Assembly: GCA_021432655.1 (NCBI GenBank)
Contig: MU271430.1
Span: forward strand, 1 to 64,000
Direction: 5' to 3'
Source of the DNA: Atractiella rhizophila
Lineage: Eukaryota
Length of the DNA: 64,000 nucleotides
Part shown: one piece after another, positions 31,603 to 60,887 of the stretch
Numbering within the stretch: position 1 is the stretch's first letter
Layout: each line of letters opens with the position of its first letter
Position numbers and translations under genes: made by a program
The notes under the pieces: model-generated
The model's input: the letters and a program-made list of their open reading frames with translations, nothing else
Told to the model about the DNA's origin: nothing
Database searches by the model: none

Positions 31603-34225
31603 TCACCGGAAGTTGAGCTGGCAATCAGGTTAGCAGATTGCACGGTATCAGAAAGGCACAAACCTTGATGAGAAAGAAAAGCATGTCCATCAGAACGTGT
31701 ACAGCAGTCCAAACGCAACTTGTCACAAGTTCAGGGTACTCCCGAAACTCATTCAGTCCAAGCTACCAAACTCGTTCACGTCCATCACCCTTAAATTAAT
31801 AGGACACGCACATTCGTGACATCCACCTTGAAGCTCCACCAACATAGCTGTCGAGCAATAAAACTGCTGGTCAACTCGATCGTCCAGATAACCAGCGAAG
31901 CGACGGCCGTCAACCTGTAGTTGTACGGATCGCCTTCAGTTTCGAAAGCGAAGAAGGGGTATATCTGTCGATTCGGACCGTAATGGAGGATGGTGAGCCA
32001 ACCAAGGAAAGAGAACATGGTGACATTCTCAGATAGATTCCGAAGATATAAGACTGCGAATATGTCAGCAGAGATTGTCTGAAATGTGATCAACTAACCT
32101 TGGCCCATCATTTCCCGATGTTGCTCTAACGTCTTTTCGTAACCCACGAGCAATTTGAGCGCGGCGTAGGAAAGGCTCGTCATGCTGAAGGGATAGAAGA
32201 AAATGACCCAAGCTGATGAGGCGAGCTGGATGGAAAGGTACTGCGCTTGCACTGCTCAGCATCAATCACAGCCGTTTTGAGGAACATACTTGATCAGGGG
32301 AACGCAAGCGCGCGAACAAATTACGGTAAAAGATAAAGTAGACACTACTTTTCGTTTAGTACGATCAATGGCAAATTGCCGACTCACAGAAAGTAGTAAT
32401 ACTGGACAGGAAGGTGAGCAAAACCAGCAGAAATGAAGTGGACCACGTACACGAAATACGAAGACAAGTGCGCGACTCCGAATCTTTTCCTCCATCACCC
32501 ATCCGCTGATCCCGCTTAAAACTTGAACAGTTCCTACCCAGCTCCAAACATACACAAGACCATCCAAACTGGAGTGCGGCAACGTTGAGAGGTATATTGC
32601 TGCGTAGCCCTGACCGGCAAGTAAAGAAAAGAGGGCGAGCGAGATCGAAAACAAGAACCACAAGAAGCGAATATAACTTCGAGGTATCCGTCTCGTTAGC
32701 TGTAAGCTCAAGAACCTTGGGAAATTCATGTAAGCTTTAAGACTAGAGAATGGCAGAAAGCCTACGATTTTTGCACCTCTGTCAGGGAGTGTCTGTAATT
32801 CTGCCGTCGGCCTCTCCTCAACTTGGCAAAGCACGTCAATGCTGGACCCATCATCACACAAAACGTAAGGGCGACCCAGAGCGTTTTGCGCTCCCAATCT
32901 ACATCCGTCTGATCCGATCCATGTTTGTGATGTCGCCGTCGTATGCGGAAGACGTCGAACTGATGCAGAAGGAGTCCAACGAGAATGCCGGTGAACCAAT
33001 AAACAGAGAAGGAAAGCTTTCCGCCCAGTCGTGATGGCCACCAATTTAGGCGGTAGAGGTCGAAAAGTTTGGTGACAAAGATAAGAGCCACTGCGAGATA
33101 TAGGCCGTAGTAGACGACTTCAAAAACTTGTTTAGCCTAGACGGTAGGAACTTTGGAAACTCACAGAGAAAGAAGTAAAAATTAGCATCCACGGGGAGAT
33201 CCTCGTCATTACCATCATCGTCCACTCGTTGATTAGGCTCCACCAGGAAGGAGGCGGAGGTATTAATGTTACTACTATCTTGAAGTCCAAAATCTATGAA
33301 AACGACTTGCTGCTGATCTTGATCTTGATGATACAACTCGGAACGTTGAATGTAATGAATGAGGGAGTCTTCTGCTTCTCCAACGTTATCGTGTCGATGC
33401 TTTGGTGCTCCGCCCCACCAACTTGAGTTCCCGCCTGGCCATGGCCATGGGAGATCGGGTATCGAAGGTGTTGCCGAGTAGGGATCGGAAACTGGAAATG
33501 GGATTGCGCACCAGATCCAGACCTGCAGAGTGTCGTTAGATTACTTCGACTGTGACGGGGTCAGCAGGCAACGTTTTAAGTTGTTGCTTGTGAAATAGTG
33601 CACCGCAGGGAACGCAAACGGGTTAGACACTTCTTCACTTTGATTAGTAAAGGAGATAATTCACACTTCAAAGGAGGCGGATATGCTGAACGATTAATCC
33701 CGTCAAGGGTAATGATTTGGACGAGCACCATAGATGCTCTTTCGAAGCTAGGACAAACTGATCTTGTGAAGACCTGACGACGATAGTGATGTAGTGCGGC
33801 ATTGAGGAAATTATGTACAGACGACAGACCAAACATAGAGAGGCTTTGGGGACCAGCTCAGGCAACAGTGGCAGCGTTTGTCTGGTGATTATCCTATGCA
33901 TAGAAAAGGTTTGTTTGCTTTTGATTGCAAAGCAGTGAATGATTTTCGTGGGACGGTAAACCACAATCGCTCCGCCTTCATCTTCCCAAAGGCTTCGTAA
34001 ATAGGCGAATGCACGACTCACCAATAAACTAGGTGCGCCAACAAGCACGCTCCACCGCCTGACCCAACTATCCAGCCACCTCTCCACCAGCTCCTTGCTT
34101 GGTCTCAGCCCTAGCACAAGCCATCCGGTCTCTGTGTTTCCCTCTTCCTCCGCCTGCTGCCGGTTGGGAGGAGTTCGAGGGGGGGAGCGTAGCCTTGCCC
34201 GTGGATTTGGCGGATCTGCATGCAT
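31603..34225 (-). CDS. Conserved fungal multi-pass membrane protein of unknown function, multi-exon
   Basis: Spliceable exons: WVRRWSVLVGAPSLL|VWIWCAIPFP, DANFYFFL, LNWWP, GQGYAAIYLSTLPH, HYGPNRQIYPFF, ending FFLIK|LNFR*. Confidence 0.8.
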
Positions 34226-34590
34226 TCCAATGAGATGAGCGTAACTGAGGTATCAAGGAAGTCACTTGCCATCCCATCCTGCGCCGTCTGAGTGTGTTGC
34301 GCCGCGCTGGAGGGGCTGGAACATTGTTTATGGACTGCACATTGACATTGACTGAACAGCTGAAAGAATGGACAAGCGCAGTAAAGTCAATCTGGGAACA
34401 ATCTAAGCCCCTCAGCATGGCGAGAGATGAGGGGCCCGTGGCGAAACGACAAAAACGACGATTAGTAAAGAATCTTTCATCTTCCCTCTTGCGCCAATTC
34501 GTCCACTTTGAGACTCCCTCAGCTTTTCTTCCCGCATCTCTTCCCGCATTGGGGGAGGAACTTCCAAAAAACTGTTACACAATTGAAGGA

Positions 34591-37500
34591 ATGATGGATT
34601 ACGACGACCTACCCTCCTCATCTGCAGTGCGCGGAGACGACCCAACATACTCTGACGAGGTTGGCGCGTCCATGCAGCCTCTAGACTCGCATGACCACCC
34701 GGATGCTGGGTTGACCTTAAGTGGGATTTCAGGTATGGAAGGCATTGAAGAAGCCGGGGAAGAAGAAGAGGAAGAGGAAGGAGAGGATGCTATGAAGGAC
34801 AGCAGTGAAGAGGAAGAGGAGGACGAGGAAGCTGAAGAAGAGGTGCGAAGGGGATTCATTGTCGATTCGGATGATGAGGAGGAACGAAGGAGGCGGAAGA
34901 GGAGAAAGAAGAAGCATAGAAANNNNNNNNNNNNNNNNNNNNNNNNNNNNNNNNNNNNNNNNNNNNNNNNNNNNNNNNNNNNNNNNNNNNNNNNNNNNNN
35001 NNNNNNNNNNNNNNNNNNNNNNNNNNNNNNNNNNNNNNNNNNNNNNNNNNNNNNNNNNNNNNNNNNNNNNNNNNNNNNNNNNNNNNNNNNNNNNNNNNNN
35101 NNNNNNNNNNNNNNNNNNNNNNNNNNNNNNNNNNNNNNNNNNNNNNNNNNNNNNNNNNNNNNNNNNNNNNNNNNNNNNNNNNNNNNNNNNNNNNNNNNNN
35201 NNNNNNNNNNNNNNNNNNNNNNNNNNNNNNNNNNNNNNNNNNNNNNNNNNNNNNNNNNNNNNNNNNNNNNNNNNNNNNNNNNNNNNNNNNNNNNNNNNNN
35301 NNNNNNNNNNNNNNNNNNNNNNNNNNNNNNNNNNNNNNNNNNNNNNNNNNNNNNNNNNNNNNNNNNNNNNNNNNNNNNNNNNNNNNNNNNNNNNNNNNNN
35401 NNNNNNNNNNNNNNNNNNNNNNNNNNNNNNNNNNNNNNNNNNNNNNNNNNNNNNNNNNNNNNNNNNNNNNNNNNNNNNNNNNNNNNNNNNNNNNNNNNNN
35501 NNNNNNNNNNNNNNNNNNNNNNNNNNNNNNNNNNNNNTCCGAGGTTCCCATTCTTTATGCTCCTGCTGTTTGTAAGACGTTCCTCTGTCGTGTGAACAAC
35601 GGCTGCTTGAGAAGGAGAAGGAGGGAGTCGGTTAAGGAGCAGGTTCAATGCGGTTGACCCTTTTCCACGAAGACATAGCGGAGGAGCTACTAAAGAAGAG
35701 AGTTCCTCAAGGTCCGAAGCCTCTGGGAACAGACGCAGAAGCTTTCCATACGTAGGAAGCATGCTGAAGATTTGAGCAATTGGCGCGCCCTGAGCTGCAA
35801 CTACAGTTAGCACTGCTCCGGCAGCTTAAGCCGACGTTCCTACAACTCCTTGACTACCGAAACTGTCTCCTCCACTTGTCCGAACCGAAAGTCCATGAAC
35901 TTGAGGACGTTGTAAGTAAACTAGTAATCGTGCGTACTTTTAACCGCTCCTTCTTACGCTTGCATCATCCCTACGTATAGTAGCTAGAATGAGTAGGGAA
36001 AGAGGCAGCCAAACTGTCACTGGCAAGGCAAGAGGTACTTGTAGGAGGAGTGTCGCGCAGACTCAACTCCCAGCACAGGTTACAGCCACCGTCGCTGGTA
36101 GAAACGCGGATGTATCAAGAAGACTTGTTGAAGGGTTCATAATGTTTCTAGTTCCTGTCTGGCAGTTCTTATACTAGGAGGGAGCAGGTGAGGCTTAAAC
36201 GCGCATGCTTGGATCTGCGCATAAGGTCTCCGTAAACCAGCTTCAGACCCTGCAATCGTAGCAAGCTTGGAGCTAACTGCTTTCGCAAACGTTCCAGACT
36301 TCCTCCTTCAGGATACCAGATGTACGGCGTAAGTTCAGTCGTTACTTAGAACTATCACATTTCCTTGTTTGGACAGGCTTAAGCTTCTGCCGCGAGAAGG
36401 ATCAGGAAAGTATGGTACAGAGAGACTGTCCAAAGAACTTGGGGGTGGACGAAGAAAGAGAGAGAGGAGCAGAAGAAGTAGGGAGCCGAGATCGGGTATA
36501 AGGGAGAAGTAGGAGTCAAGGAGGTAAAGGAGGAACATGAAGGTCGAGTAGGTAAGCGAGTTTAGTAAGTGGAGGAGGTGGCAGAGATATAGAGCGGTAT
36601 AGACCAGTTTCATGCCTAGGCAGAGGGGGGCAACCCTGCCATTCTACGAGTCCTTAGGCGCTGGCTAGCTAGAGGAGGAGGTATTAGAGCATGAGGGGGT
36701 GAAGAACGGAGAAAAGCTCGAACTCGTAGAGGTCTCGCAGAAGCTCAAAGAAGCCGGAGCTGAGGAAGGGAGACGGACTCGTTGAAAGGGTTGCAGAAGA
36801 AGTGTGGTACGAAGGAAAGGTTGTACCGGGATTTGGATCGTGACTCCCGTAAGCGGCAGGTCTCAAGGTAGACCAGTTACTTCTTACAAACTGGAAGCTC
36901 GCGGAAGAGTTAGAACAGGCAGAGGTATAGATAACTACGGAGTAGGAATACGAGAGAGTGGAGGCGGTGGGATAGGGAGGAGTAAGCTTTGAACACGAGG
37001 AGGTGGAATAAGGATAGGAAGGGATACGCCCTGCTCTATCAGAAAGGCTACGCAGGTGTGCTTTCCCTGGAGGGTTTTAAGCGCTACCTTCTTGAGCTGT
37101 GTGAAGAACTCTGTAAGGGATATAAGAGAGAGCTTTTGCCCCAGAGAAAGGGAGAGACAGCCGGGCGTGTTTAAGGACCAAACAAGCTCCCCTCTATGCG
37201 CCACGGTAGGTCAACTGTGTGGCAAGTTAGAGGAGAAGCAGTAGGGTACCGAACTCCTCTGACCGTTCTTCTGCTACCCTCTCCCACCTCCGCTCCCTCC
37301 TCTTCCGCTCAACGTAAGCAAGGCCCTGCAGCTTTCTGGCCTACATAAGCAGGAGCAGGCAATCATCTGCTCTCCGCTAAACCCTTCCGAGCTTCTACAG
37401 GAAATTCTGGCTCTCCAACCCACCTCCTGTCGCGACCGAGTAGTAGAGGAAGATCCCGGGTTCGTATCAGCAGTGGGCAAGGCAAATTGACATTGTGTGC

Positions 37501-40347
37501 AGACTATCTCAATGGCTCCCTACTGGAACAAGTCCGTTGGCAAACCTTTTGGCAGCACACCGGATATCATTGCCGTCTCCCATGGCCACGGTGATCCGAA
37601 GCACGACCTTGTATGGGCTGTCCATCTCGACTCCAGCGGTCGATACGTCCGTCACCTCAAGCTGGAGAATCTTCGAGATCCCGAAAACAGGGAAAAGTTC
37701 AAGAGCTTCATCTTGGAGTTCAAATCCACTCTTTCAGCCATCGTCGTGGGAGGATTTACACCTTCTACAGCGAAGCTAATGGGAGACGTCAAGATTATCA
37801 CTGGTGCGGCAGCCGACGAGCTCAAAGCGGATATTCATTACGAGGACGCTCTTAACGATACCGCCAGAAGTGCAAAAGCCGCTTTCGATTGTCTCTATAT
37901 TCAAGACGACGTCGCAAGGATCTATCATGTCTCTCAACGTGCAGCGGAGGAGTTCCCATCATTGCCTCCGATTTTCAGGTATTGCGTCGGCCTTGCGAGG
38001 TATGCTCAGAGCCCAATCAACGAGTATGCGGCGTTGGGGAAGGATATGACCGCTGTTACTTATGATCCATGGCAGAAACTGGTTCGTCCTGACTTTCCTC
38101 CTGATGGCATTGATATGTATTGTGTCATAGTTGTCAAGGGAAAAGGTTATGAACTTTCTGGAAAGAGCGATGATCAACGTCATGAATCTTGTTGGCATCG
38201 ATATCAATAAAGCGGTTCACAACAACTACTACGCCACTCTCCTTCAGTACATATGCGGATTAGGGCCGCGGAAAGGTCAAGCCCTCATCAGTAAAATTTC
38301 ATCGAAGCTGGTACGTTGTATGGCTTGCGTACGCTTACAATATACTTACCAGGAGAAATTACAGGGAGGCCACGTTGTGTCCAGGCATCAACTTATCCAA
38401 ACGGAAGTCCTTACTCCTGGAGTATGGATGAACTGTGCCTCTTTCCTCGAGATCCCCCTTTCCAACGCACCCGACATTACCGCTCATGCAGAAGGAGTCG
38501 TCGAGGATGCTTTGGACGGCACACGCATTCACAACGAAGACTACGATATCGCGAGGAAGATGGCGGCGGACGCGATGGAGATGGACGAAGAGGAAGTTAG
38601 GGATATTGCGGAGAATCCTTCAAAGTACGTGAGGGATTTGATGCAGATCAAGGACAAGGCGAGGCGACTGGAAGAGCTGAGTCTGGACGACTTTTCGGAT
38701 CAGCTACAGTCGATTATGGGCGTACCGAAGAGGAGTTCTGTACATATGATCAGGGAGGAGATCCAAGATCCTTATGGGGAAAAGAGGTCACCTTTTAATC
38801 CACCTCAAGCGCGGGATGTTTTCACGATGCTCACTGGAGAGACCCGCGCAACTCTGGATCACGGTCTCATTATCCCCGTTGTAGTCACCAAGTTTCGTCC
38901 CGACGAGGGTGTCAACGTCCGACTGGATTCCGGTGTCGAGGGTGTTGTCTTCTCACAACACTTGTCTGATACTCCGACGAAAGCAGCAGAGGTCTTCCAT
39001 ATCGGTCAGACAGTGCAAGGAATGGTCATTGCCGTCAACCATCAGCAATTCAGCGTCGAGCTTTCCTGCCAAAATTCCGCTCTCGCTACAGGTGATGCAG
39101 ACTTCCGACGTGTAGCGGTGGACGTGTACTATGACCTCGATGCCGCGGACCAAGACAAAATGGCAATGGAGCGGAAGGCCAAAAGGAAATCCAACAAGCT
39201 AAGGAGAGTCGTTCAGCATCCCAACTTTCATAACTTCAACGCCGGTCAAGCGGAGCAGCACCTTGCTGGACGGCCCAGAGGCGATTGTGTCATTCGTCCT
39301 AGCTCAAGAGGCATGGATCATTTAGCTCTGACTTGGAAGGTTGATGAAGGAGTCTATCAACATCTTGGTTCGTTCTCTTCAGCAACCTCTTTCATTTGCT
39401 CACGTCTAGTTTTAGACATTTTAGAACTTGACAAGCCCAATGAAGCCTCCCTTGGGCGTACCCTGCGTGTCGGCGGAAAGTACTCGTACTCAGATCTCGA
39501 CGAGTTGATCTTCTCGCACGTAAAGGCCATGGCAAGGAAGGTGGAGGAAATGATGAACTCTGAAAAGTACAAAGGATCTGAGCAGGAACTGAGTGCGTTT
39601 TAACCTTGTCCGCTGCCGTTTTTGTGAGTTAGCATGGGCAGATACCTTTCTTACAAACTACGTCATGGCGAATCCTGACAAAAGCATCTACGCTTTTGGC
39701 ATTGACAAACGGAATCCTGGTCAATTTCTCTGTTCATTCAAAGCTAACTCTAGTAGTCCTATCCAGAGTTGGGTATGTCTCTTCCTGTACTTTCCTGGTT
39801 GTGGCTAACATTCTCTCAGTCTGTCAAACTGGTTCCAGGGGCTTTCGTGCTTCAAGACAAGTTTTCGGACCCTCTACCAGACATGGTTATGTTGGTGCGT
39901 CACTATTGGATCAGTATACCGTTTCATTGACCTTCAGGTCAGTGCAACGCATTCAAAACCCGATACACCGTCATGGGCCAACAGGCTCGAGCTGCTCCAG
40001 CACGCACCCAACCAACTCCCTATCACCAATCATCGCGAACTCCCAATCCATACGCCGCTCAAACCCCTATGCACCCGTCACGAACCCCAAATCCTTATGC
40101 CGCTCCTTCAGCTGGGTCCCACACGCCACATTACGGCGCTCCGACACCTCGAGTGCCACCTGTGGGCACTGTATATGCAACTACGCCTCATTATGGCGCT
40201 CCCACGCCTGTGTGGCCTCCACCTGGATCGCAGACTCCCAACTTCCCATATCAACAACCAGGCCCACAGCATGCAGGGTGGGGCGGAACCACGCCTGGTG
40301 GGCCTGGTGGCGGCGCGCTGCAGCAGCAGAGTTATGGATATCGTTAA
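34591..40347 (+). CDS. SPT6: Transcription elongation factor/histone chaperone Spt6, interrupted by an N gap and a reversed block
   Basis: Acidic N-terminus with GFIVDSDDEEE; YqgF region ARYAQSP; HhH GLGPRKG; LDGTRIH; S1 and tandem SH2 (HPNFHNFN, VIRPSS, YSDLDELI). Confidence 0.96.
34923..35537. other. Assembly gap (N run) within SPT6
   Basis: Run of n characters. Confidence 1.
35538..37485. other. SPT6 sequence reversed but not complemented
   Basis: Read right to left without complementing, it translates to DDYAWALE...DIFEPSQIASRLLTDEDEYIRSFDVPERMQL...VKPTEKGMSKIDDMHPYY|EFKYLKAKP...RNWLREEEEEFVG. Confidence 0.95.
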
Positions 40348-60604: not shown

Positions 60605-60887
60605 NNNNNNNNNNNNNNNNNNNNNNNNNGCTGCAAAAATTGTCGGACGGGACTGTGCAAAGCCCTGCTCTCTTGATTTAAACAGGGCTGTGTGAAGGTC
60701 AATCCTTTTATATTGACAGGATTGACAGGACGTTGACTTCTGTTACTTCGTTCATTGCTGGTGCATTTGGAATTTGGAGCGAATTTACGCTTGACTTCAC
60801 TTTCGCATTCTTCCTCCTACAAGTTAGCTTTAAAGCTCGACCTGGAAAAGTTCCTTTCCAGCTAGGGTTCGCCTCAAAGTTGCAACC

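What the first reader, a model, noticed from the sequence alone, without database searches (positions are those of the whole stretch)
35538..37485. Mirror-image DNA: ~1.95 kb of SPT6 reversed without complementation
Seen: the block has no Spt6-like ORF in any of the six frames. Read backwards as plain text it gives Spt6 hallmarks (DIFEPSQIASRLLTDEDEYIRSFDVPERMQL; DIGHDPQLRRAVR; PTEKGMSKIDDMHPYY|EFKYLK), including normal introns. Flipped, it ends in SLQN|gtttgt..., an intron that can close at the ...tgtgcag acceptor at 37502 and continue in frame into TISMAPY. It carries extra bases in homopolymer runs, typical of noisy long reads. Established: no known polymerase or recombination process makes a reversed, uncomplemented copy. 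Inference: a gap-filling software artefact beside the N run, which will corrupt the SPT6 model and create false orphan ORFs.
Basis: seen in the sequence. Interest (0 to 1): 0.75.

Follow-up and report, generated by a model that had tools for sequence, protein, structure and literature searches.

The report
SPT6 segment written backwards: assembly error
About 1.9 kb of an ordinary fungal SPT6 gene, next to an assembly gap, is stored back to front without being complemented; this is a data-handling error that hides a third of an essential gene, not biology.

Summary
Window 35538-37482 (1,945 nt, 3 nt shorter than reported) lies directly right of a 615-N gap. It gives no Spt6 match in any of its six frames. 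Reversed as plain text, it gives eight collinear matches to a profile of 40 Spt6 proteins, positions 242-726, running straight into the exon at 37503. A 5-mer orientation score is -31.5 for the block against +50.9 (sd 18.5) elsewhere in the window.

Contigs built from public sequencing runs settle it. One DNA contig reads the exact reverse of 35538-35567 immediately before 37483. Spliced contigs join the reverse of 35573-35602 to 37503, which confirms the predicted intron.

The turned block holds four ordinary short introns. It also has about six inferred one-base frameshifts, all in the half nearest the gap.

The only near-identical public protein I found is a 377-aa "hypothetical protein" of Atractiella rhizophila covering just the C-terminal end. 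Earlier notes of this scan, which I did not check, report the same defect at five or more other gap-adjacent places in this genome.

Verdict: a finishing or gap-filling artefact. Its biological interest is low, but it matters for curation.

The parts
34744..34922 (+). End of the upstream SPT6 coding sequence (acidic N-terminal region), in normal orientation. It stops at the gap.
   Evidence: Pfam PF14632 SPT6_acidic, E 1e-06. Own 40-homolog profile, positions 20-82, i-E 3.8e-15. Orientation score of 33900-34922 is +26.2.
34923..35537 (.). Run of 615 N (assembly gap). About 160 positions of the Spt6 profile (83-241) are missing here.
35538..37482 (.). Mirrored block: the true + strand sequence of the SPT6 middle part (profile positions 242-726), written last base first and not complemented. 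Read from 37482 down to 35538 it is the real sequence.
   Evidence: homology appears only after plain reversal. (k-mer orientation score -31.5 against +50.9 elsewhere). (run-derived contigs read the reverse of its left end next to 37483 and 37503).
37062..37412 (.). Inside the block, read right to left: the conserved DIFEPSQ...PERMQL region, profile positions 268-380.
   Evidence: i-E 3.7e-29.
35573..36124 (.). Inside the block, read right to left: the best-conserved stretch (profile positions 562-726), ending with the exon end ...SLQN at 35573. It is interrupted by a 57-nt intron at 35962..35906.
   Evidence: i-E 3e-56. (intron candidate GTTCGC...TTGCAG). (exon end confirmed by X3 and X4 contigs).
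36319..36371 (.). Inferred 53-nt intron (GTTTGT...TGTAG when read right to left). It accounts for one frame change.
36109..36161 (.). Inferred 53-nt intron (GTCTGT...TGTAG when read right to left). It accounts for one frame change.
35538..35572 (.). 5' part (35 nt) of the intron that spans the junction. Read right to left it starts GTTTGT.
   Evidence: The loose end of the X1 DNA contig is the exact reverse of 35538-35567.
37483..37502 (+). 3' part (20 nt) of the same 55-nt intron, in normal orientation, ending ...GTGCAG.
   Evidence: The X1 contig aligns from 37483. The X3, X4 and X5 contigs join at 37503.
36435..37437 (.). The half of the block nearest the gap in true orientation. It holds six inferred one-base frameshifts, near 37421, 37142/37137, 37031/37023, 36770, 36630 and 36445.
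   Evidence: Frame changes between collinear profile matches with no room for an intron. This is inference from homology and open frames, not from reads.
37503..38080 (+). SPT6 exon (YqgF/RuvX-like domain), in normal orientation.
   Evidence: Pfam PF14639, E 4.1e-25. X3 contig piece 37503-38080, with a joint skipping a GT..AG intron to 38130.
38130..40344 (+). Remaining SPT6 exons (HHH, S1, tandem SH2, C-terminal tail). Introns were seen in spliced contigs at 38081-38129, 38310-38363 and 39367-39414. The public 377-aa model P0127 covers only 39022-40344.

Best explanation
Window 35538-37482 is not a property of the organism. It is a 1,945-nt piece of the + strand of the SPT6 gene that some sequence-handling step of assembly finishing stored in reverse order without complementing it. 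The piece sits in the right place and has the right length. Turned end for end, it is continuous with 37483, completes a 55-nt intron and splices into the exon at 37503. Its other end faces the 615-N gap.

Most likely it is a one-sided patch that extended the right-hand contig leftwards into a gap that could not be closed. Either the extension was written in the order it was grown, or a minus-strand patch was complemented but not reversed; the two give the same string. The patch seems to be of lower quality than the flank, with about six one-base frameshifts, all in the half farthest from the solid contig. That would fit a low-coverage or single-read patch.

Shown: the reversal, its boundaries, the true continuation at the junction, and the damaged public gene model. 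Inferred: the kind of software step, the read type, and the frameshifts.
For: (1) Homology appears only after plain reversal. A profile of 40 full-length Spt6 proteins matches the flipped block in eight collinear pieces, profile positions 242-726, best i-E 3e-56 and 3.7e-29. These are followed without loss by the exon at 37503 (positions 726-928). The deposited block matches in none of six frames. tblastn gives the same result for the 4 homologs printed of 11 run.

(2) A 5-mer orientation log-likelihood ratio was trained on both strands of the window. The five 500-nt windows inside the block average -9.24 (range -16.3 to -3.7). The other 246 average +9.18 (sd 5.78). Of these 246, 5 are negative: four are between -0.15 and -2.05, and one (-10.33) overlaps the block. 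The whole block scores -31.5, against +50.9 (sd 18.5, minimum +27.1) for 264 random stretches of equal length.

(3) Contigs made from public runs by another assembler. The X1 contig (3,843 nt, DNA by guess) aligns to 37483-39437 with 5 substitutions and no indel. The 30 letters before 37483 are the exact reverse of 35538-35567. The X3 contig (which skips three GT..AG introns, so is spliced) joins 37503 to letters that are the exact reverse of 35573-35602. X4's loose end at 37503 was not found in the reversed block; set beside X3's string it differs by one letter (my reading). X5's letters are the reverse of 35566-35595. None of the four strings occurs on either strand of the deposited window.

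(4) The block abuts the N run with no N on its other side. The left flank of this gap and both flanks of the 25-N gap at 60605-60629 have normal orientation scores.

(5) The turned block contains four short introns of the local type, 53, 53, 57 and 55 nt.

(6) Consequence: the only near-identical public protein found among proteins of 226-2060 aa is P0127. It is 377 aa, named 'hypothetical protein', from Atractiella rhizophila, and 376 of 377 residues match window 39022-40344 exactly.

(7) Earlier notes of this scan report the same kind of block, about 2.1-2.2 kb beside gaps, at five or more other places in this genome. I did not check these.
Against: I could not read the public record itself or the assembly's own raw reads, and no whole genome is held. 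So I cannot show at which step the reversal entered, or that it is in the deposited record rather than in a later copy.

I found no paper that describes such a bug.

The 'noisy long read' idea is weak. Homopolymer runs are not enriched in the block: 5.1 against 11.9 runs of 4 or more per kb. The six frameshifts are inferred from homology and open frames only; some could be unrecognised introns or real lineage-specific insertions.

The 500-nt window 37001-37500, which lies almost wholly in the block, scores +3.2 rather than negative, and the 300-nt window 37188-37487 scores +0.7. The k-mer score alone therefore does not fix the right boundary.

The best DNA holder, X1, may come from material related to the source of the assembly. 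It differs from the window at 5 of 1,955 positions.
Confidence: 0.96

Rival explanations
1. The reversal is not in the public record. It was introduced later, in a derived copy or in the preparation of this window (for instance as a planted control).
For: I could not read the public record. No whole genome is held, and the collections available do not contain it.
Against: The public annotation at this locus is already damaged. The only near-identical protein is a 377-aa C-terminal fragment named 'hypothetical protein', although spliced transcripts of the upstream exons exist. The block sits exactly between an N run and solid contig, which is where a finishing step acts. Notes of this scan report the same defect at other gaps of this genome (unchecked).
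Confidence: 0.03
2. A real chromosomal inversion: SPT6 is disrupted by an inverted (reverse-complemented) segment in this strain.
For: None beyond the loss of the reading frame on the + strand.
Against: A real inversion would leave the gene readable on the minus strand. The three minus-strand frames of the deposited block give no Spt6 match. Contigs from four runs continue across the junction in the un-inverted order, and two are correctly spliced.
Confidence: 0.003
3. Real 'mirror' DNA: the organism carries a reversed, uncomplemented copy produced by an unknown process.
For: The string exists in the record. The reversal is exact enough to keep exons, introns and splice signals.
Against: No template-directed process yields a same-strand reversed copy (established knowledge of polymerases and recombination). 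The strings read from four runs at the junction are the reverse of the block and are absent from the deposited window. SPT6 would be destroyed, yet spliced transcripts of the normal order exist.
Confidence: 0.003
4. Chance resemblance of a purine-rich, low-complexity stretch to the charged part of Spt6.
For: The block is purine-rich (GC skew up to 0.43, AT skew up to 0.27), and part of it encodes charged, low-complexity protein.
Against: i-E values of 3e-56 and 3.7e-29 fall on non-repetitive conserved segments. The eight matches are collinear, continue in frame with the next exon, and contain correct intron signals.
Confidence: 0.001

Closest known systems
Mis-oriented contigs or patches in scaffolds (ordinary reverse-complement orientation errors, false inversions at gaps)
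   Same: A piece next to a gap is placed correctly but in the wrong direction. It breaks gene models and comes from scaffolding or gap closing.
   Different: An ordinary orientation error leaves the gene readable on the other strand. Here the string was reversed without complementing, so none of the six frames reads it and standard tools (blastx, read mapping, gene callers) see only anonymous DNA. I found no published description of this.
Reversed, non-complemented sequence used on purpose as a null or decoy sequence
   Same: The same operation on the string. It keeps base composition and length but destroys homology, which is exactly why the block looks like orphan DNA.
   Different: That use is deliberate, takes place outside sequence records, and is never joined to real flanks. 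Basis: the search listing only (for example PMC3531169 and PMC4971761 hold the phrase 'reversed without complement'). I did not read those papers.
Other mirrored blocks noted by this scan in the same genome (e1-7588550, e1-7572163, e1-7574415, e1-7574419, e1-7588955)
   Same: Blocks of about 2.1-2.2 kb beside assembly gaps, written backwards without complementing and hiding ordinary genes. The size and position are like the present 1,945-nt block.
   Different: They lie in other scaffolds and hide other genes. Those notes are unchecked by me. I do not know which side of the gap they lie on or whether they also carry frameshifts.
Spt6 (S. cerevisiae Spt6 / human SUPT6H), histone chaperone and transcription elongation factor
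   Same: This is the gene that the block belongs to. It has the acidic N-terminus, YqgF-like, S1 and tandem SH2 domains in the usual order, and the middle part is collinear with 40 fungal Spt6 proteins. The best full-length relatives are Pucciniomycotina Spt6 at 44-49% identity over the queried part.
   Different: Nothing unusual in the gene itself, apart from two apparent charged insertions relative to the profile (inferred).

Membership tests
Reversed-uncomplemented assembly artefact | Homology or coding sense is absent in all six frames and is restored by plain string reversal | tested here: met
Reversed-uncomplemented assembly artefact | Strand-symmetric k-mer statistics are those of reversed DNA | tested here: met
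   Block LLR is -31.5 against +50.9 (sd 18.5, n=264) elsewhere. With the tested window left out of training, it is -9.24 against +9.18 per 500 nt.
Reversed-uncomplemented assembly artefact | Sequence derived independently from reads contradicts the deposited order at the boundary and agrees with the reversed order | tested here: met
   Loose ends of contigs from X1, X3 and X5 equal the reverse of 35538-35567, 35573-35602 and 35566-35595; X4's string was not located (by eye it differs from X3's by one letter). None of the four is present in the deposited window.
Reversed-uncomplemented assembly artefact | It lies at a seam of the assembly (gap or contig end) | tested here: met
   The left end is the first base after the 615-N run.
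Reversed-uncomplemented assembly artefact | The assembly's own raw reads do not support the deposited order; the responsible program is identified | not testable with these tools
   The run ids are coded and only contigs were available. No genome or pipeline record is held.
Biological inversion | The gene segment is readable on the opposite strand | tested here: not met
   No match in the minus-strand frames of the deposited block.
Spt6 gene | Acidic N-terminus, YqgF-like, S1 and tandem SH2 domains in order | tested here: met
   Pfam PF14632 (E 1e-06), PF14639 (4.1e-25), PF21710 (2.1e-23) and PF14633 (1.3e-49). HHH PF14635 is only a weak partial match (E 0.001, below its cut-off).
Spt6 gene | Middle part (HtH/DLD core region) collinear with other Spt6 proteins | tested here: met
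   Only after reversal: own profile positions 242-726. Pfam was not run on the reversed translation, so the Pfam names of these domains were not tested.

The most novel reading that the evidence does not exclude
The defect is systematic. One finishing step mirrored every one-sided extension into unclosed gaps, so this assembly, and possibly other public assemblies finished with the same program version, carry many blocks of about 2 kb of real but unreadable sequence. These blocks hide genes from annotation and seed databases with truncated or orphan models. A simple k-mer orientation score, or a flip-and-search of gap flanks, would find them all.
Probability: 0.3. Interest if true: 0.35.

Novelty: not a real feature. 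Interest (0 to 1): 0.2.

Why it matters
It has no bearing on biology; the fungus has a normal, expressed SPT6. It matters for data quality. A mirrored block is invisible to six-frame searches, to read mappers and to gene callers. An essential, universally conserved gene is therefore represented in public protein sets only by a 377-aa 'hypothetical protein'. That could be misread as gene loss or truncation in comparative studies and in completeness scores. The scan's notes report the same defect at other gaps of this genome. The record therefore deserves a systematic check of all gap flanks and a correction. The orientation score used here is a cheap screen for that.

Tried and rejected
1. Whole-genome scan of other gap flanks: not possible, because no genome is held for this window. 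Within the window, only this block has a clearly reversed k-mer score, and the flanks of the second gap (60605-60629) are normal.

2. Depth of run contigs over the block. All four laid runs show zero depth in the 14 bins from 35538 to 37357 while covering the flank. The best share of sampled words was 0.45 for a query that was half block and half flank. By the tool's own caution, missing cover from contigs proves nothing, so I rest the case on the loose ends and joints instead.

3. Independent DNA of a close relative from metagenome contigs, to pin the indels base by base. Only 1 of 138 pattern matches encoded a relative, and it has 24% identity (L001), so it is useless for that purpose.

4. 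Literature on a known bug. The searches were: phrases for 'reversed but not complemented' (9 papers listed of 15, all by title and abstract start about deliberate controls or unrelated); 'uncomplemented/gap/assembly/reversed' (unrelated); 'PBJelly/reverse complement/bug'; and the passages of PMC6191289 and of preprint 10.1101/166231 that mention PBJelly. The last two only describe its use. Searches for the assembly method of Atractiella rhizophila gave nothing usable. I therefore name no program.

5. Homopolymer enrichment as a signature of noisy reads: rejected as a general statement, because the block has fewer runs per kb than the rest of the window.

6. Two of the frame changes that first looked like frameshifts turned out to be 53-nt introns.

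7. Whether annotators called false genes inside the block: not tested. Mechanical ORFs of up to 130 aa exist there, but I ran no further search on them.

8. The exact gene structure of the gap-near half (insertions versus frameshifts) could not be settled without transcript letters.

Full report
WHAT IS THERE. The window has a run of 615 N at 34923-35537. On its left, the + strand encodes the acidic N-terminal region of Spt6: Pfam PF14632, E 1e-06, and positions 20-82 of my own Spt6 profile. From 37503 rightwards the + strand encodes the rest of Spt6. The domains are YqgF-like PF14639 (E 4.1e-25), S1 PF21710 (2.1e-23) and SH2 PF14633 (1.3e-49). Full-length relatives are Spt6 proteins of Pucciniomycotina and other basidiomycetes, at 44-49% identity over the 412 residues queried. 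The reported block lies between the gap and 37503.

CHECK OF THE OBSERVATION. I reversed 35538-37485 as plain text in a script and translated it.

I ran tblastn with 11 full-length homologs and printed 4. In the deposited orientation there is no HSP inside the block in any of six frames; one downstream HSP of P0004 merely runs 75 nt into it. With the block flipped, all 4 printed homologs gain collinear HSPs over about residues 237-750, and these abut the downstream exon.

I then built a profile from 40 full-length homologs: the first 40 by id, of 1450-1720 aa, among the 120 listed. I searched it against all six frames of both versions. The deposited version matches only at the downstream exon. 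The flipped version matches in eight ordered pieces on + frames, profile positions 242 to 726. The independent E-values are 0.016, 3.7e-29, 9.2e-09, 1.2e-06, 6.2e-10, 0.18, 4.2e-04 and 3e-56. The exon at 37503 follows (positions 726-928, 7.1e-64). There is one noise hit on the minus strand (E 9.9). This cannot be chance.

A TEST THAT DOES NOT USE HOMOLOGY. Real DNA has nearly the same k-mer frequencies on both strands, but not the same as its plain reverse. I trained an order-4 model on both strands of the window and scored each stretch against its own reverse.

- With the tested stretch left out of the training, the five 500-nt windows inside the block average -9.24 (range -16.3 to -3.7).
- The other 246 windows average +9.18 (sd 5.78).
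- Five of those 246 are negative. Four lie between -0.15 and -2.05, and the fifth (-10.33) overlaps the block.
- The whole block scores -31.5. For 264 random stretches of equal length the mean is +50.9, sd 18.5, minimum +27.1. The model here was trained on the window without the block, so the random stretches are slightly favoured.
- The left flank of this gap (+26.2), the right flank (+32.5) and both flanks of the small gap at 60605-60629 (+30.7, +22.9) are normal.
- Against: the windows nearest the right boundary score +3.2 (37001-37500) and +0.7 (37188-37487). This score does not fix the boundary.

READ-DERIVED EVIDENCE. A search of public runs with 35538-39437 (half block, half flank) listed 20 runs, and none held more than 0.45 of the sampled words. 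I laid X1, X3, X4 and X5.

- X1, a 3,843-nt contig, aligns to 37483-39437 with 5 substitutions and no indel. A further 791 letters of it do not fit the deposited sequence. The last 30 of these are the exact reverse of 35538-35567.
- X3 contigs skip three GT..AG introns (38080>38130, 38309>38364, 39366>39415), so they are spliced.
- X4's loose end at 37503 was not found in the reversed block. Set beside X3's string it differs by one letter, which is my own reading.
- X5 joins 37503 to the reverse of 35566-35595.
- None of the four strings occurs on either strand of the deposited window.

So the real sequence has the block in reversed order, in the same place. The flank begins at 37483, not 37486, and the 55-nt intron (35572..35538 plus 37483-37502) is used.

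X1, X3 and X4 all read G where the window reads A at 37685 and 37694. In the frame set by the exon start, both are third codon positions of GAA codons. The runs are therefore not simple copies of the deposited sequence.

ANATOMY OF THE TURNED BLOCK. Of the frame changes between successive profile matches, two are explained by 53-nt introns of the local type: deposited 36371..36319 and 36161..36109, GT(T/C)TGT...TGTAG. A 57-nt intron lies at 35962..35906, between ...MHPYY and EFKYLK.

Six further frame changes leave no room for an intron. I read them as one-base errors, near deposited 37421, 37142/37137, 37031/37023, 36770, 36630 and 36445. Five are a net +1 and one is a net -1. Three lie at runs of four or more identical bases, including a G6 and a G5 run. 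All six are in the half of the block that faces the gap. None is in the 900 nt next to the solid contig, and the flank shows no indel against X1 over 1,955 nt. This is inference from homology and open frames. Some of these changes could be real insertions or unrecognised introns. Homopolymer runs as such are not enriched in the block: 5.1 against 11.9 per kb for runs of four or more.

Between the upstream exon (profile position 82) and the start of the turned block (profile position 242), about 160 profile positions are missing. That is compatible with a gap of the stated size.

HOW IT AROSE. The piece has the right place and length, is seamless with the right-hand contig once turned, and faces the N run with its far end. 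That is what a one-sided extension of a contig into an unclosed gap looks like. Such a string ends up reversed if it is stored in the order in which it was grown outwards, or if a minus-strand patch is complemented but not reversed. The cluster of probable indels at the far end suggests a low-coverage patch, which would fit noisy long reads, but I could not test this.

Earlier notes of this scan describe the same kind of block, about 2.1-2.2 kb beside gaps, at five or more other places in the same genome, and in no other genome so far. I did not check them. If they hold, the fault is systematic for this assembly. I found no paper that describes such a fault, and I name no program.

CONSEQUENCE FOR PUBLIC DATA. 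I searched the large protein collection with the downstream part of the gene, first for proteins of 722-2060 aa and then for 226-721 aa. The only near-identical protein was P0127. It is 377 aa, named 'hypothetical protein BT69DRAFT_1284201 [Atractiella rhizophila]' by its source, and its only listed Pfam domain is SH2. In P0127, 376 of 377 residues lie in exact matches to window 39022-40344. So this essential gene is represented only by its C-terminal quarter. Models shorter than 226 aa, and possible false models inside the block, were not looked for.

COMPARISON AND VERDICT. The gene is an ordinary Spt6. The feature is an error of the orientation class, but of an unusual kind: reversed and not complemented. 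That makes it invisible to six-frame searches and to read mapping. The rivals fare as follows. A real inversion fails because there is no minus-strand match. Real mirror DNA fails because the run contigs contradict it. Chance fails on the E-values. Only the possibility that the reversal entered after deposition remains slightly open, because I could not read the record itself. Biological interest is low; the practical value is for curation of this assembly.

Noticed in passing
window 37503, with deposited 35566-35572: The short X5 contig (146 nt, depth 2.7) joins 37503 to the exon end plus the first 7 letters of the intron. That would be a donor 7 nt further downstream, which would shift the frame. 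It may be a rare mis-splice or a contig artefact.
   Followed up: no
window 37685 and 37694: All three runs that cover these places (X1, X3, X4) read G where the window reads A. Both are third positions of GAA codons, so the change is synonymous. This looks like strain or haplotype differences rather than errors.
   Followed up: partly
window 39022-40344: The public protein P0127 (377 aa, 'hypothetical protein', Atractiella rhizophila) starts at an internal Met, 1.5 kb downstream of the block's end. The exons at 37503-39021 are therefore also missing from the only model found, although they are in normal orientation and are covered by spliced contigs.
   Followed up: partly
window 60605-60629: A second gap of 25 N. 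The 1-kb flanks on both sides have normal orientation scores (+30.7 and +22.9), so there is no mirrored block here.
   Followed up: yes
deposited about 36900-37020 and 36630-36770 (read right to left): Two open, highly charged stretches of roughly 40-50 codons have no counterpart in the 40-homolog profile. They lie between profile positions 394 and 398, and just before position 436. They are probably lineage-specific insertions in this Spt6, but they lie in the error-prone half of the block.
   Followed up: no
L001 (metagenome contig Ga0066639_10041021), 2210-2611: This was the only metagenome locus confirmed for the YqgF exon. It is a distant relative (24% identity over residues 18-155) and was of no use here.
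   Followed up: no
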